This document shows positions 26,243 through 29,504 of a DNA stretch of 29,504 nt, in pieces. The notes under the pieces are model-generated. The model made no database searches. It was not told the DNA's origin and was given only the letters and a program-made list of their open reading frames with translations. The number at the start of each line of letters is the position of its first letter. Within the stretch, counting starts at the first letter, position 1. Position numbers and translations under genes: made by a program. The DNA comes from Fastidiosibacter lacustris. GTDB taxonomy: Bacteria > Pseudomonadota > Gammaproteobacteria > Francisellales > Francisellaceae. The stretch lies in assembly GCF_003428155.1 (NCBI RefSeq), contig NZ_QLIR01000022.1, forward strand, positions 1-29,504, given 5' to 3'.

Positions 26243-28489
26243 TCAAACGTAGCTTTCAGTCTCCAATGGAAGAAGCGTATTTTCATGAGTTGTTTGCCAC
26301 AATATATTAGAGAAAGTCATATAAACATTACTCAACCACACATCAGCCTGTAATTGTTCTTTCTCAATGCTATCTTGAGCAAGGTATCTTGCGTCATTAT
26401 ATAACTTAAACTTTTCAAACAAGTGTTGTTTGATACGCTGCTCCAATAATGTACGCTTATCACCAAAGCTCGTTTCGCCTTTTACATATGAAATATAATA
26501 ACGATCTGCTTCAACCTGCTCTAAGGCTTTTTTATAATTCTCAACGCCATCACCAATGTAATTTTGTTTTGGCCAGTTAACATCAAGTGGAACAAGGGTC
26601 GTATTACTCCAGCGCTCTAAATGATTATGATTAAAATCTTCTAATGCGGTAAGTTCAAAGCGATAATCTTTATTTTTACCTTCTTTATCCTTCTTTGATT
26701 TAATCATTGCATAAGCTTCATAGCTTAGCAGCTGATGATCAGCAAAACTTGCCAAGAAACTCAGCTTTGCCAAAATATATGACTTAGGATTGTTAATATC
26801 GTTTTGTGCGACTCTTTGCTGCCATGCTGTTTGGTCAGCTAAATTCCGGCTATTTTCATTGGCTTTTTCATGTAAATATTTCTTTAGTGTGCACAAATTG
26901 ACACAAGAGACATGCTCTCGCCAATAACTGTTCATAATACTTGGAATTCCTGCATTAACTAGCTTTAACTGGGTTAATACAAAAAATGCTGTCAATAAGG
27001 CAATCGCTTGTGAAAATTCTTCTTTGGAATGCTGATGAAATACACTCAACAGAGGACGAACATTGTTCCAATGTTCCTTTTCTAAGTAATGCAAAAACAG
27101 TTTGGTTTTGTCATCTAGATCAAGGTAGATACTGCCTTCTTGATTCATATTGGTATTTTCAAAGCTATAGCAGAAATATAAGTGATCTCGAATTTTTTTA
27201 ACAAACTGTGTTTTTTGCTCTTTCTTTTCAGTGGAAATTGCAAAATACTCATCAATTAAGAACTGGCGTTGTGCCTTTAAGCTTTTGCTTACCTTTTGCT
27301 TATTTCCCGTTAAAATATAGCCAAGATCGACAATAAATTTGTCTAATGTCTTTGTTTTACCTTTATTTTGCGTGGAATTTAGCAAATCATGTATTTGCTC
27401 AAACAAAGTATACTCTACTGACTGTTGATAGTCTTGATAGCCAACATAACGAATGACTTCTGGCTTAAATGTGTCAATAGCATTCAGCGGCTCACCAGTG
27501 GTGTTTAATGCCTGAAAAATATTATGTGAATATGAGTTCTTAGTTACACTAATGACTGTGAAAGCACAACGGTAAAGTACAAACTCTGCTAAATAAAAAA
27601 GAGCAACGATTTCTTTTAAGTGTTTAAGCTTTTCTCCTTTAATAGGCAAATGAGGATTTGTGATGGCAGACAACTCGAATCGTTGCAAATATTCATATAA
27701 ATGACTGTCAGGTCGCAAGAAAGCTTCTGTCATTTCTTCGGACTGCAAAATGTCATTTATTTCCTGATCAATAATTTTAAAAAATGACTTTAAATTCCCA
27801 TTATAACCATAATCAGATTGACGATAATTAAATAAATAAGAAGCAACATCAGAATTATAAAGCACTTTGGACTCAGAAGTTGACCAACAGTCGTCATACA
27901 TGCGAATAATGCGTGGATAAACACAAAATGGATTCTCTTTTTCATCCCCTTCAGCAACTGTGAAGCGGCAAATGTCATGAGTGGCTCCTGTAATAGTACC
28001 AATACATGCTGTAATACCGTAATATAGGTCAAGAATCATGACTCGATTTTCACATTTATCATCTTCTAGATTTTCAAAATAGCGTCTATCTTCTTTGAGC
28101 TTCTTGCTAAGTTTGTTAAGTCTTTGATAAATTCTTGAAGCCAGGAGGGTAAATGTTGTTAAGCGTTGCTGACCGTCTACCACAACAGAGACCTGAGAGG
28201 GCATAGCTCTTGTATCACAAGGTTCAACGTCCAAATTGCTATTATTATCTTCAACTAGCACAATTGCACCAAAAAATACTAATGCGGATAAATCATCTGA
28301 AAACATGCCTTCTTTAAGGCTATTAAAGAGATCACCCATATTTGTTTTGCCATCACCATCCCAAGCAAACGGACGTTGATAACTTGGGATATAATAGCCA
28401 TTTTTCTGCGCTAAAGTCATATAAACACTCTTGGGTGTTGAAGTAAAAATGCCATCGATATTGATTTTCATTCCTTCATATTTTGTCAT
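26243..28489 (-). CDS. DUF262 (ParB/GmrS-like NTPase/nuclease-fold) domain protein with a long uncharacterised C-terminal half
   Basis: 748-aa ORF with a strong AGGAGG Shine-Dalgarno. DUF262 hallmarks YYIPSYQRPFAWD, VVVDGQQRLTTFTLL and IFQALNTTGEPLNAIDTFKPEV. I see no DUF1524-type His-Me motif in the last ~400 aa. Confidence 0.85.
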   Translation of the reverse strand: MTKYEGMKINIDGIFTSTPKSVYMTLAQKNGYYIPSYQRPFAWDGDGKTNMGDLFNSLKEGMFSDDLSALVFFGAIVLVEDNNSNLDVEPCDTRAMPSQVSVVVDGQQRLTTFTLLASRIYQRLNKLSKKLKEDRRYFENLEDDKCENRVMILDLYYGITACIGTITGATHDICRFTVAEGDEKENPFCVYPRIIRMYDDCWSTSESKVLYNSDVASYLFNYRQSDYGYNGNLKSFFKIIDQEINDILQSEEMTEAFLRPDSHLYEYLQRFELSAITNPHLPIKGEKLKHLKEIVALFYLAEFVLYRCAFTVISVTKNSYSHNIFQALNTTGEPLNAIDTFKPEVIRYVGYQDYQQSVEYTLFEQIHDLLNSTQNKGKTKTLDKFIVDLGYILTGNKQKVSKSLKAQRQFLIDEYFAISTEKKEQKTQFVKKIRDHLYFCYSFENTNMNQEGSIYLDLDDKTKLFLHYLEKEHWNNVRPLLSVFHQHSKEEFSQAIALLTAFFVLTQLKLVNAGIPSIMNSYWREHVSCVNLCTLKKYLHEKANENSRNLADQTAWQQRVAQNDINNPKSYILAKLSFLASFADHQLLSYEAYAMIKSKKDKEGKNKDYRFELTALEDFNHNHLERWSNTTLVPLDVNWPKQNYIGDGVENYKKALEQVEADRYYISYVKGETSFGDKRTLLEQRIKQHLFEKFKLYNDARYLAQDSIEKEQLQADVWLSNVYMTFSNILWQTTHENTLLPLETESYV

Positions 28490-28546
28490 TGCTATCCTCC
28501 TGAAAGTTTATTTATTACGACAAATAATGTTTCATTATGTTTTTTA

Positions 28547-29155
28547 TTAAAAAACTTTGAATCCAGTTTCATTGATTTGTTTCACGTGTGACATCACCAG
28601 GTTGTTACGGGTAATCGCTGAATGTTGCCAAAATGCTTGATAAGATGTTTGTAAGGTGTTGATACGATGTTGATATTTTTTATCTTTGCTTAGCTGTTCT
28701 AATACGGTATGAAATGCATAAACCCCATTTGTCTCATCGTGCCCATAAAAGCGCGGCAATACATTTTCTTCTATACAGTATGGTGAAATATATTGCGCTT
28801 TTTGCTTAAGTAATACCTCGCTTAAACAAAAATAAAGAACATCAGTTTGGAAGTCTTTGACGTACATCACATCAACATTTTCTAACTGCGAGTTATACTG
28901 TTGCCCTGACTCATGCAAAGGTAGTTTCAAACTCATTGAGCTTAGCTTTGTTCGTGTGAAAATTTCGCCTAAGTAAGCATATTGTTTCACTTGAATAGAG
29001 CTTAACTTTTCATGCAAAAAACGCTCTATTTGCGTTAACTGACCTTGCAGTATTTTTACCGAGTAGTTGAATACAAAAACATCTCTACTGCCATATAGTT
29101 CTTCAATCGTATAAAGGCTTGCTTTAGCGACTGCTCCTAGTGATGGTAAGCTCAT
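28547..29155 (-). CDS. Hypothetical protein with a C-terminal Rx6H motif (possible HEPN-like fold), co-oriented 57 nt upstream of the DUF262 gene
   Basis: 202-aa ORF with no overlapping competitor. ITRNNLVMSHV lies 12-20 residues from the C-terminus. No other family motif recognised. Confidence 0.6.
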   Translation of the reverse strand: MSLPSLGAVAKASLYTIEELYGSRDVFVFNYSVKILQGQLTQIERFLHEKLSSIQVKQYAYLGEIFTRTKLSSMSLKLPLHESGQQYNSQLENVDVMYVKDFQTDVLYFCLSEVLLKQKAQYISPYCIEENVLPRFYGHDETNGVYAFHTVLEQLSKDKKYQHRINTLQTSYQAFWQHSAITRNNLVMSHVKQINETGFKVF

Positions 29156-29504
29156 TATTGACCTAAACAGCTATCGATAAATAATAAAGCACATCATAAA
29201 TATTTATATATTTTTGCAACAGGTGTTATTAAATGAATCATGATCCTATGAAAAATCACAAAAAGCAACTTTAGTAATCAAGGCTAAATACAACAACGTG
29301 AGCACCCGTCAATTTACCTTAATAATTTATACGACAAAATTACTTGGTGTTAGCATTGATCAACGTAAAACAACAACTCTTTACAACAAAGCATTACAGC
29401 GATACTGGAATTTTAAGATACCATCTGTATTTGAGGTAAAGTGAATGTAAGGAAACCTTAGATGATTAAAAGTGTTGTTCTAAAGTATCTTCAAGCGACA
29501 CTTT

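What the first reader, a model, noticed from the sequence alone, without database searches (positions are those of the whole stretch)
26243..29155. Two-gene module: small HEPN-motif candidate plus a 748-aa DUF262 protein without an obvious DUF1524 nuclease, a candidate uncharacterised defence system
- **Seen, large protein:** it carries the three DUF262 hallmarks (IPSYQRPFAW, DGQQRLTT, F-x-ALN-x-x-GEPL).
- **Established:** in the characterised DUF262 defence proteins (GmrSD-type type IV restriction, SspE, BrxU), this domain is fused to a C-terminal DUF1524 His-Me nuclease.
- **Seen, C-terminal half:** the ~400 aa after DUF262 show no such motif by eye.
- **Seen, small protein:** a co-oriented 202-aa gene sits 57 nt upstream. 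Its only recognisable feature is R-N-N-L-V-M-S-H near the C-terminus, which fits the Rx4-6H HEPN catalytic signature and its usual C-terminal placement.
- **Inference:** the effector nuclease may be supplied in trans by the small protein, with DUF262 acting as the sensor/NTPase.
- **Context:** the pair lies in an accessory-looking stretch (GT2, MFS) and converges on the MFS gene.
Basis: partly seen in the sequence, partly recalled or inferred. Interest (0 to 1): 0.72.

Follow-up and report, generated by a model that had tools for sequence, protein, structure and literature searches.

The report
Nuclease-dead SspE-like gene with small partner
This is a rare two-gene unit from a lake bacterium: a relative of the phage-defence enzyme SspE that keeps its DNA-sensing motor but has lost its DNA-cutting site, always found next to a small orphan protein that is not the RNA-cutting (HEPN) enzyme first suggested.

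Summary
Both ORFs and all quoted motifs are present. The window is a whole 29.5-kb contig of Fastidiosibacter lacustris.

The 748-aa protein belongs to the SspE branch of DUF262 proteins (PADLOC SspE 2.5e-74; fold match to SspE 9e-23). Every NTPase motif is intact. Its C-terminus is a decayed DUF1524. The general-base His, present in 104 of 106 canonical relatives, is L/M/I/P in this clade, and other conserved site residues are lost or variable. Canonical relatives sit beside sspBCD; this clade does not.

The 202-aa protein has only two other 50%-identity clusters among 1.84 billion representatives. In all four lineages it lies directly upstream of the His-less gene. A WYL-WCX regulator of comparable divergence joins the module in four sampled lineages. 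Unsaturated comparisons give dN/dS of about 0.06-0.09.

The HEPN reading fails. Rx6H is not conserved (H to Y), arises in 47% of shuffles, and lies in a beta-strand of an alpha/beta model. That model's top matches in two libraries are weak matches to DUF262 proteins.

Best reading: a WYL-linked accessory, probably defence, module. An SspE-derived NTPase acts as sensor rather than nuclease, with an obligate small partner; the effector is unknown. New variant of a known kind; moderate interest.

The parts
28547..29155 (-). 202-aa orphan partner gene. It has no sequence family. The predicted fold is alpha/beta, possibly DUF262-like. Conserved motifs are LENV-V (residues 91-96) and RFYG-D (135-140).
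   Evidence: ORF. No Pfam, PADLOC, NCBIfam or PHROGs hit. Only 2 other clusters in 1.84 billion representatives. Always directly upstream of the SspE-like gene. Alignment A3. Model and fold matches.
28586..28609 (-). RNNLVMSH (residues 183-190), the proposed HEPN Rx6H motif. It is not conserved and is not above chance.
   Evidence: H to Y; R out of register. (47% of shuffles). (beta-strand 186-193 in the model).
28490..28546 (-). 57-nt spacer with an AGGAGG ribosome-binding site (28496-28501). No terminator, so the genes are probably co-transcribed.
26243..28489 (-). 748-aa SspE-family protein (including the stop codon).
   Evidence: PADLOC SspE 2.5e-74. PDB sequence hits EcSspE 20yv 2e-42 and SspE 6jiv 3e-30. 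Foldseek 7drr/7drs about 1e-22, DndI 1e-10, BrxU 2e-4.
27455..28462 (-). DUF262 (GmrSD_N) NTPase/reader domain, residues about 10-345, with all family motifs intact. DGQQR lies at 28163-28177.
   Evidence: Pfam 7e-23. Column statistics over 111 sequences. Model pLDDT is mostly above 85. dN/dS 0.02-0.03.
26705..27454 (-). Helical middle domain, residues about 346-595. It corresponds to the SspE DNA-binding region, and the invariant Q407-R408 is kept.
   Evidence: PADLOC SspE matches extend to residues about 505-603. Match to SspE CTD 7dri. Invariant QR.
26246..26704 (-). Degenerate DUF1524 (His-Me finger) remnant, residues about 596-748. FELTALED replaces IEHIAPQ, with L613 (26651-26653) in place of the general-base His. 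A clade-specific insertion of about 45 aa follows.
   Evidence: Alignments A1 and A5. The canonical C-terminal profile is not significant on the core. hhalign aligns only 26 columns around GNLTLLP. pLDDT 46-73. dN/dS 0.13-0.27.
29466..29504 (-). Last 12 codons (KVSLEDTLEQHF, then stop) of a co-oriented upstream gene cut by the contig end. It may be the C-terminus of the WYL-WCX regulator.
   Evidence: Sequence. Resemblance to the WCX C-terminus PKVLRESITQHL in L008. Unproven, because no Fastidiosibacter WYL protein was found.

Best explanation
The locus is a small accessory operon, most likely a WYL-regulated anti-phage or anti-plasmid module, built around an SspE-derived protein that has stopped being a nuclease.

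**Shown**
- The 748-aa protein keeps the complete DUF262 NTP-binding and hydrolysis apparatus and the helical middle domain of SspE.
- Its C-terminal DUF1524 has lost the general-base His in every clade member. Other conserved site residues (the HIAP Pro, the metal-binding Asn, the conserved Trp and Lys) are lost or variable.
- The gene is under strong purifying selection.
- It is always preceded by the same lineage-restricted gene of about 205 aa.
- In sister taxa a WYL-WCX transcription factor is added. It has diverged to a similar extent although its position in the gene order differs.

**Inferred**
- The large protein works as an NTP-driven DNA sensor or switch, as the N-terminal half of SspE does, and not as the executioner.
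- The small protein is its obligate partner. It is either a motif-less DUF262-fold subunit that forms a hetero-oligomer with the large protein (compare TgvA-TgvB), or the carrier of an unrecognised effector activity.
- The WYL protein sets expression.
- The module probably acts without phosphorothioate marks, because no ssp or dnd genes lie nearby.

The effector step is unknown.
For: - **SspE family:**
- **NTPase motifs intact; His absent:** 100% conservation of the NTPase motifs. The His is present in 104 of 106 canonical relatives but is L/M/I/P in this clade. P616, N638, W646 and K649 are also lost or variable.
- **Asn point mutations in the HNH motif abolish defence:** StSspE N676A, EcSspE N724A and DndI N541A (PMC9646914; PMC13251355; PMC11662687).
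- **Purifying selection:** omega 0.06-0.09 for the whole gene, 0.13-0.27 for the C-terminal domain and 0.087 for the small gene.
- **Linkage:** the small gene is upstream of the large gene in the window, L001, L008 and L009.
- **Rarity:** the small family is limited to these lineages in 1.84 billion representatives.
- **WYL-WCX regulator:** present in L002, L007, L008 and L009. The L008 and L009 copies are 35% identical over their full length.
- **Defence context:** hsdRMS lies next to the module in Cysteiniphilum, and a CRISPR-like array lies in L009.
- **Variable surroundings:** mnmE in Cysteiniphilum, MFS and dap genes in the window.
- **PT genes:** canonical relatives lie next to sspBCD, and this clade does not (versus 14, 25, 50).
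- **Precedent:** other His-less SspE-like proteins carry extra neighbouring genes, namely PbeA and PbeC beside P0021.
- **Small-protein fold:** the top matches are SspE in the PDB and DUF262 proteins in BFVD. Its secondary-structure order parallels the large protein's N-terminal domain.
Against: - There is no phenotype data, and PADLOC does not name the pair as a system.
- No nuclease or other effector can be identified in either protein, so the killing or blocking step is a guess.
- The DUF262-like fold of the small protein rests on one of five AF2 models (pLDDT 71, the others 31-35; 3-sequence alignment).
- The Foldseek matches supporting that fold are weak (E 0.02-0.26). Sequence profiles show nothing.
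- In the window the module is flanked by housekeeping genes with no compositional break.
- PT genes elsewhere in the genome could not be excluded.
- Some relatives look damaged: the gene is split in L004-L006 and truncated in L009, and WYL is lost in C. litorale. This could mean the family is dispensable.
- The sample is only four or five lineages.
Confidence: 0.5

Rival explanations
1. One reading: the small protein is a HEPN RNase that supplies the effector nuclease in trans, and the DUF262 protein is the sensor.
For: - An Rx6H string lies near the C-terminus.
- A DUF262 plus HEPN defence system exists: PD-T4-2 (PMC10952713).
- The large protein lacks its own nuclease site.
- The linkage is conserved.
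Against: - The His is Tyr in both Cysteiniphilum orthologues, and the Arg is not in register in P0123.
- 47% of shuffles carry the motif.
- There is no HEPN, Pfam or PADLOC (including PD-T4-2) hit at E up to 1.
- The model is alpha/beta with the motif in a strand. HEPN is an all-alpha bundle (established knowledge).
- No HEPN structure appears among the fold matches.
Confidence: 0.04
2. An ordinary SspE that works with sspABCD encoded elsewhere in the genome. The C-terminal domain would still nick DNA through a non-canonical site, and the small gene would be incidental.
For: - Strong SspE profile and fold matches.
- The PT-reader Tyr in P-x-Y-Q-R and R109 are conserved.
- N629 is retained.
- The C-terminal domain is still under constraint.
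- The upstream side of the window is unseen.
Against: - The general-base His is absent in all clade members, and the metal-binding Asn is variable.
- No ssp genes lie within 10 kb on either side in two Cysteiniphilum genomes, or in the 26 kb of the window downstream of the pair. Canonical sspE genes abut sspBCD.
- The small gene is linked in 4 of 4 lineages and is under purifying selection.
Confidence: 0.1
3. A domesticated, non-defence DNA-binding NTPase. A ParB/DndB-like regulator or chromosome-associated factor would act with a small cofactor.
For: - There is no nuclease.
- The ParB-superfamily NTPase and the DNA-binding middle domain are retained.
- DndB is a DUF262-type protein that is not a nuclease (PMC11662687).
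- The flanks in the window are housekeeping genes.
Against: - The distribution is patchy and very rare, and the genomic context varies.
- The module is associated with WYL-WCX, type I R-M and a CRISPR-like array.
- The closest relatives are all defence effectors.
Confidence: 0.15
4. A decaying remnant of an SspE system on its way to loss, with no current function.
For: - The active site is lost.
- The gene is split in L004-L006 and truncated in L009.
- WYL is lost in C. litorale.
- The C-terminal domain is more relaxed than the N-terminal domain.
Against: - Full-length ORFs are kept at 60% identity across genera.
- Omega is 0.06-0.09 overall and below 0.3 even in the C-terminal domain.
- All NTPase motifs are invariant.
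- A conserved clade-specific insertion is present.
Confidence: 0.08

Closest known systems
SspE of the SspABCD-SspE phosphorothioate-sensing defence system (StSspE 7DRS, VcSspE 6JIV, EcSspE 20YV)
   Same: - Overall architecture and length.
- DUF262 with P-x-Y-Q-R, DGQQR and N-T-T-G-E-P-L motifs.
- Helical DNA-binding middle domain.
- It gives the best profile, sequence and fold matches.
   Different: - The HNH/DUF1524 site is destroyed (His to Leu and further losses).
- It is not adjacent to sspBCD (versus 66, 67).
- It has a conserved small upstream partner and a WYL regulator.
- It is only about 26% identical to canonical SspE.
TgvAB of Vibrio cholerae VPI-2 (two-protein GmrSD-like type IV restriction; PMC11411939)
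   Same: - A two-gene unit in which a DUF262-only protein and a longer DUF262 protein are both required.
- It is embedded in or next to a type I R-M system, as in Cysteiniphilum.
   Different: - TgvA has a bona fide DUF262 with DGQQR, and TgvB has an active DUF1524.
- Here the small protein has no DUF262 motifs (fold-level hint only), and the large protein has no active nuclease.
His-less SspE variants inside PT islands (P0021 with SspABCD plus PbeA/PbeC; P0054 with DndB and PAPS reductase)
   Same: They are SspE-family proteins lacking the catalytic His and are accompanied by additional genes that could act in trans.
   Different: - They are separate lineages that remain next to PT-modification genes.
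- Their partners are Pbe proteins or other large proteins.
- They have neither the 202-aa family nor WYL.
DUF262 systems without DUF1524: PD-T4-2 (DUF262 plus HEPN), Dazbog, Menshen (PMC10952713, PMC12065111)
   Same: A DUF262 sensor is coupled to a separate effector gene.
   Different: - The large protein does not match their PADLOC models, and the small protein matches none.
- The large protein retains a DUF1524 remnant and the SspE middle domain.
BrxR/CapW-type WYL-WCX regulators of defence islands
   Same: An HTH-WYL-WCX protein overlaps the module's genes in sister taxa.
   Different: It was not seen in the window itself. At best, a 12-residue fragment at the contig edge hints at it.

Membership tests
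SspE (SspABCD-SspE) | N-terminal DUF262 with the DGQQR NTPase motif and the P-x-Y-Q-R reader motif | tested here: met
   Pfam GmrSD_N 7e-23. All motif columns are identical to the 106 canonical relatives.
SspE (SspABCD-SspE) | C-terminal DUF1524 His-Me (H...N...N/H) nicking site | tested here: not met
   No PF07510 hit. The His column is H in 104 of 106 relatives but L/M/I/P in this clade. P616, N638, W646 and K649 are lost or variable. The canonical C-terminal profile is not significant.
SspE (SspABCD-SspE) | Encoded next to sspBCD(A) phosphorothioate-modification genes | tested here: not met
   No DUF4007, PAPS_reduct or large ATPase in L001 or L008 within 10 kb on either side, or in the window. 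All are present beside canonical relatives. Only 349 nt upstream of the small gene is visible in the window, and the rest of the genome was not searchable.
SspE (SspABCD-SspE) | PT-stimulated GTPase and PT-dependent protection | not testable with these tools
   This needs biochemistry and PT mapping.
GmrSD/BrxU type IV restriction enzymes | DUF262 plus an active DUF1524 in one polypeptide (or GmrS plus GmrD) | tested here: not met
   The nuclease site is absent. The BrxU fold match is much weaker than SspE. The PADLOC HEC-05/06 hits cover the N-terminal domain only.
HEPN (small protein) | Conserved Rx4-6H in an all-alpha fold | tested here: not met
   The motif is not conserved and is expected by chance. 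There is no HEPN profile hit. The model is alpha/beta.
PD-T4-2 / Dazbog / Menshen | Match to the systems' component models | tested here: not met
   PADLOC returns only SspE, Orf5, HEC-06 and PDC-M55C for the large protein, and nothing for the small one.
DUF262/ParB-like fold (small protein) | Fold similarity plus NTPase motifs (QR, DGQQR) | tested here: inconclusive
   The top Foldseek matches are SspE (PDB; E 0.06-0.26) and DUF262 proteins (BFVD; E 0.018 and 0.037). The secondary-structure order is parallel. Only 1 of 5 models is confident, there is no profile signal, and the motifs are absent.
WYL-WCX (BrxR/CapW-like) regulated defence module | An HTH-WYL-WCX gene in the operon | tested here: inconclusive
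   It is present in L002, L007, L008 and L009, absent in L001, and unresolved in the window, where only a 12-aa edge fragment is visible.

The most novel reading that the evidence does not exclude
A phosphorothioate-independent, nuclease-free defence system derived from SspE. Two DUF262-fold proteins, one with a full NTPase and one stripped of all motifs, would act under a WYL switch. They would stop invaders by a non-nucleolytic route, such as NTP-driven clamping or occlusion of foreign DNA, NTP depletion, or recruitment of an unlinked effector.
Probability: 0.15. Interest if true: 0.7.

Novelty: new variant of a known kind. Interest (0 to 1): 0.45.

Why it matters
SspE, DndI, GmrSD and BrxU are all understood as a sensing NTPase that licenses its own nuclease. 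This is a clade that keeps the sensor under strong selection but has discarded the nuclease, and that has acquired a fixed small partner and a WYL regulator. It would show how the DUF262 sensor can be rewired to a different output.

The clade apparently lacks nearby PT genes, so it could also reveal what an SspE-type reader recognises other than phosphorothioate.

The practical value is limited by rarity (a few Fastidiosibacteraceae and Francisellaceae genomes) and by the lack of any identified effector.

Tried and rejected
- **Exact-sequence look-ups** of both window proteins found nothing.
- **Small-protein profile searches** in Pfam, NCBIfam, PADLOC and PHROGs gave nothing.
- **Profile tests of a DUF262 relationship** were negative: hhalign of the small-protein alignment against 111 SspE-like proteins gave probability 0.3, and an HMM of the DUF262 N-terminal domain scored within the shuffled range. 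DUF262 homology is therefore not shown at sequence level.
- **Canonical DUF1524 tests on the clade** gave an insignificant HMM score on the core and an hhalign match of only 26 columns at probability 14%. Homology of the remnant rests on positional alignment within a full-length homologous protein.
- **The 139-aa ORF upstream of marine relative P0007** is not similar to the 202-aa protein.
- **The metagenome scan** used generic patterns and returned only distant DUF262 proteins.
- **Viral-contig scans** for both proteins were empty.
- **The WYL homology search** did not find a Fastidiosibacter copy, so the window edge is unresolved.
- **Promoter and terminator scans** were not above chance, and repeats around the pair were unremarkable.
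- **A nucleotidyltransferase reading** of the small protein (G63 ... LENVDV as GS...DxD) was considered by eye and dropped, because the acidic pair is not in the right spacing or conserved.
Full report
**1. Observation.** The two ORFs are exactly as described: 26243-28489 (-, 748 aa) and 28547-29155 (-, 202 aa), 57 nt apart. An AGGAGG site lies 6 nt before the large gene's ATG, and there is no terminator-like site in the spacer. The three DUF262 hallmarks are at residues 34, 105 and 325. Pfam gives GmrSD_N at 7e-23 and no DUF1524. RNNLVMSH is at residues 183-190 of the small protein.

The window is a complete 29,504-bp contig of Fastidiosibacter lacustris. A second assembly of the species carries the same pair at 99% identity. 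Both assemblies end 301-349 nt upstream of the small gene. The last 12 codons of a co-oriented gene are all that is visible there.

**2. The large protein is SspE-like.** PADLOC SspE models match at 2.5e-74, 4.4e-65 and weaker, but the matches stop around residues 505-603. The best solved-structure sequence matches are 20yv (2e-42) and SspE 6jiv (3e-30). Entry 20yv is identified as EcSspE from PMC13251355.

An AlphaFold model built on 111 homologues has pLDDT 82.9 and pTM 0.77. The N-terminal and middle parts are above 85, and residues 600-748 score only 46-73. Its Foldseek matches are:

| Structure | E-value |
|---|---|
| SspE 7drr/7drs | about 1e-22 |
| DndI 9jfl | 1e-10 |
| SspE C-terminal domain 7dri | 2e-6 |
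| BrxU 7p9k | 2e-4 |

**3. The nuclease site is gone.** In the homologue list, the five closest proteins carry only PF03235: the second F. lacustris assembly, Cysteiniphilum, a Francisellaceae MAG and a marine lineage. Almost all canonical relatives, at about 26% identity, carry PF07510 plus PF03235. In the 111-sequence alignment every N-terminal motif column is identical between the clade and the 106 others. This covers P35, Y37, Q38, R39, W43, D105-R109, P192, R196, D200, N329-L335, Q407 and R408.

The C-terminal columns differ:

| Feature | Canonical relatives | This clade |
|---|---|---|
| General-base His (IEHIAPQ) | H in 104 of 106 | L / M / I / P |
| Pro of HIAP | P in 105 of 106 | L / M / L / S |
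| Structural Asn of GNLTLLP | N in 105 of 106 | N in all |
| Metal-binding Asn | N in 104 of 106 | N / E / K / N |
| Conserved Trp | W in 103 of 106 | G / G / W / F |
| Conserved Lys | K in 104 of 106 | V / Q / E / N |

A profile of the canonical C-terminus does not score significantly on the clade's core. hhalign aligns only 26 columns around GNLTLLP. The region is therefore a positional remnant of DUF1524, not a working His-Me finger, and it carries a clade-specific insertion of about 45 aa.

The literature shows that Asn point mutations in this motif abolish both nicking and defence. The examples are StSspE N676A (PMC9646914), EcSspE N724A (PMC13251355) and DndI N541A (PMC11662687).

**4. 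It is not a dying gene.** Nei-Gojobori estimates on unsaturated pairs give omega of 0.06-0.09 for the whole gene. By region, omega is 0.02-0.03 for the N-terminal domain, 0.08-0.12 for the middle domain and 0.13-0.27 for the C-terminal remnant. The small gene gives 0.087, based on few substitutions.

**5. The small protein.** It has no hit in Pfam, NCBIfam, PADLOC or PHROGs. The word-indexed search of 5.8 billion proteins found one homologue, from Cysteiniphilum at 52% identity. An exhaustive HMMER search of 1.84 billion representatives added one more, P0123 from a Francisellaceae MAG at 30% identity.

Across the four sequences the Arg of the proposed motif reads R/R/R/H and the His reads H/Y/Y/H. 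The invariant motifs are LENV-V and RFYG-D. An Rx4-6H string occurs in 47% of shuffles of this protein.

AlphaFold on the 3-sequence alignment gave one confident model out of five (pLDDT 70.9, pTM 0.72; the others 31-35). It is a mixed alpha/beta fold with residues 186-193 in a strand. HEPN is therefore not supported.

Unexpectedly, the model's top PDB matches are three SspE chains (E 0.06-0.26, probability up to 0.66). In the independent BFVD library the top two are DUF262 domain-containing proteins (E 0.018 with probability 0.85, and E 0.037).

Its order of secondary-structure elements mirrors the large protein's N-terminal domain:

| Protein | Element order |
|---|---|
| Small (202 aa) | b14-16, a17-21, b25-29, a33-56, b60-68, loop, b95-102, a104-115 |
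| Large (748 aa) | b15-21, a22-26, b30-34, a47-62, b71-81, loop, b99-105, a107... |

Sequence profiles do not confirm this, and the QR and DGQQR positions are not conserved. I treat "motif-less DUF262-like partner" as a lead with roughly 35-40% credibility.

**6. Linkage and context.** Every known member of the small family sits directly upstream of a His-less SspE-like gene:
- **Window, F. lacustris:** the small gene, then the large gene.
- **L001, C. litorale:** 208 aa, then 753 aa.
- **L008, Cysteiniphilum sp. QT6929:** 208 aa, then 751 aa, then a WYL-WCX gene overlapping by 8 nt.
- **L009, Francisellaceae MAG:** WYL-WCX overlapping the 207-aa gene by 10 nt, then the DUF262 gene.

Two further contigs, L002 and L007, begin at the large gene and show WYL-WCX downstream. 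Between Cysteiniphilum and the MAG, the WYL proteins are 35% identical over their full length. The small proteins are about 30% identical. The large protein is 42% identical between the window and the MAG. The three genes have therefore diverged to a similar extent despite the different gene order.

The surroundings differ between genera. Cysteiniphilum has hsdRMS and mnmE. The window has MFS, GT2 and dap genes plus a cyo operon and other housekeeping genes. The MAG has a 60-nt-period CRISPR-like array. There is no compositional break in the window.

The 12-residue fragment at the window edge (KVSLEDTLEQHF) resembles the WCX C-terminus PKVLRESITQHL. It is too short to decide, and no Fastidiosibacter WYL protein was retrievable.

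**7. Relation to PT systems.** Canonical relatives P0013 and P0033 lie beside DUF4007 (SspB), a roughly 1,100-aa ATPase (SspC) and PAPS reductase (SspD). SspA is also present beside P0013. None of these occurs within 10 kb on either side in the two Cysteiniphilum loci, or anywhere in the window.

Two other lineages have also lost the His:
- **P0021:** it matches a PADLOC SspE model end-to-end. It sits between sspABCD and a downstream PbeA / CxC / PbeC / dnd-associated gene set.
- **P0054:** it lies in a locus with DndB and a PAPS reductase.

Nuclease-dead SspE-like proteins therefore recur and already sit inside catalogued SspE models. Those lineages stay within PT islands, however, whereas the Fastidiosibacteraceae/Francisellaceae clade has a different and unique partner set.

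**8. Mechanism.**
- **Shown:** an intact NTPase/reader domain, a retained middle domain, a lost His-Me site, purifying selection, obligate adjacency to the small gene, and a recurrent WYL regulator.
- **Inferred:** the large protein senses DNA and switches conformation on NTP hydrolysis, as SspE does, but cannot nick. The output must come from the small partner or from an unlinked factor.

TgvAB, in which two DUF262 proteins are both required (PMC11411939), and PD-T4-2, which combines DUF262 and HEPN (PMC10952713), show that split or trans arrangements exist. Neither is matched here.

I put about 0.5 on [quoted passage not shown]. The rivals follow:

| Explanation | Confidence |
|---|---|
| Domesticated non-defence DNA-binding NTPase | 0.15 |
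| Ordinary SspE acting with distant ssp genes | 0.10 |
| Decaying remnant | 0.08 |

**9. Verdict.** This is a new variant of a known kind, the SspE/GmrSD family. It is rare and untested, and the effector is unknown. Interest is moderate.

Noticed in passing
L009:523-990: Seven repeat copies at exactly 60-nt spacing lie just upstream of the WYL gene in the Francisellaceae MAG. This looks like a CRISPR array of roughly 30-nt repeats and 30-nt spacers. There is no Rfam hit.
   Followed up: partly
L009:4510-4968: A direct repeat of about 58 nt (GCTGCGAGACATGGAGAGCGGAACGCGAGGTCGAGTAGACCCGGGTAGTCTT) brackets about 340 nt. It cuts the DUF262 gene at about codon 438. It is either an inserted small mobile element or an assembly artefact.
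   Followed up: no
L004:535-2670 (also L005, L006): The marine relative P0007 is split by an in-frame stop into 81-aa and 614-aa ORFs in three independent samples. It is preceded by an unrelated 139-aa ORF and followed by a DEAD-box helicase.
   Followed up: partly
L094:8001-15218: A Pseudoalteromonas SspE variant without the catalytic His (P0021) lies between sspABCD and a co-oriented PbeA / CxC / PbeC / dnd-associated-4 set. This is a composite Ssp-Pbe island in which the SspE copy is probably nuclease-dead.
   Followed up: partly
L096:1764-11092: Another His-less SspE-like protein (P0054) sits in a locus with a PAPS reductase, DndB, an nSTAND-like ATPase and two unannotated genes of about 305 aa flanking it.
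   Followed up: no
window:29298-29444 (+): A 48-aa ORF (MSTRQFTLIIYTTKLLGVSIDQRK...) runs divergently between the small gene and the contig edge. It has no family hit.
   Followed up: partly
window:29156-29504 and L003:1-301: Both F. lacustris assemblies break within about 50 nt of each other, 301 and 349 nt upstream of the small gene. This suggests a repeat or another assembly-breaking element just beyond the window.
   Followed up: no
window:140-2422 (-): An Hsp70-like 594-aa gene lies immediately downstream of, and abuts, a DUF2760 gene on the minus strand. The pair is unrelated to the finding.
   Followed up: no
window:15690-16571 (+): A tyrosine recombinase (Phage_int_SAM_1 plus Phage_integrase, XerC/D-like) lies about 10 kb from the module, with an HTH_3 gene and a SAM methyltransferase nearby. 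No evidence links them to the pair.
   Followed up: no
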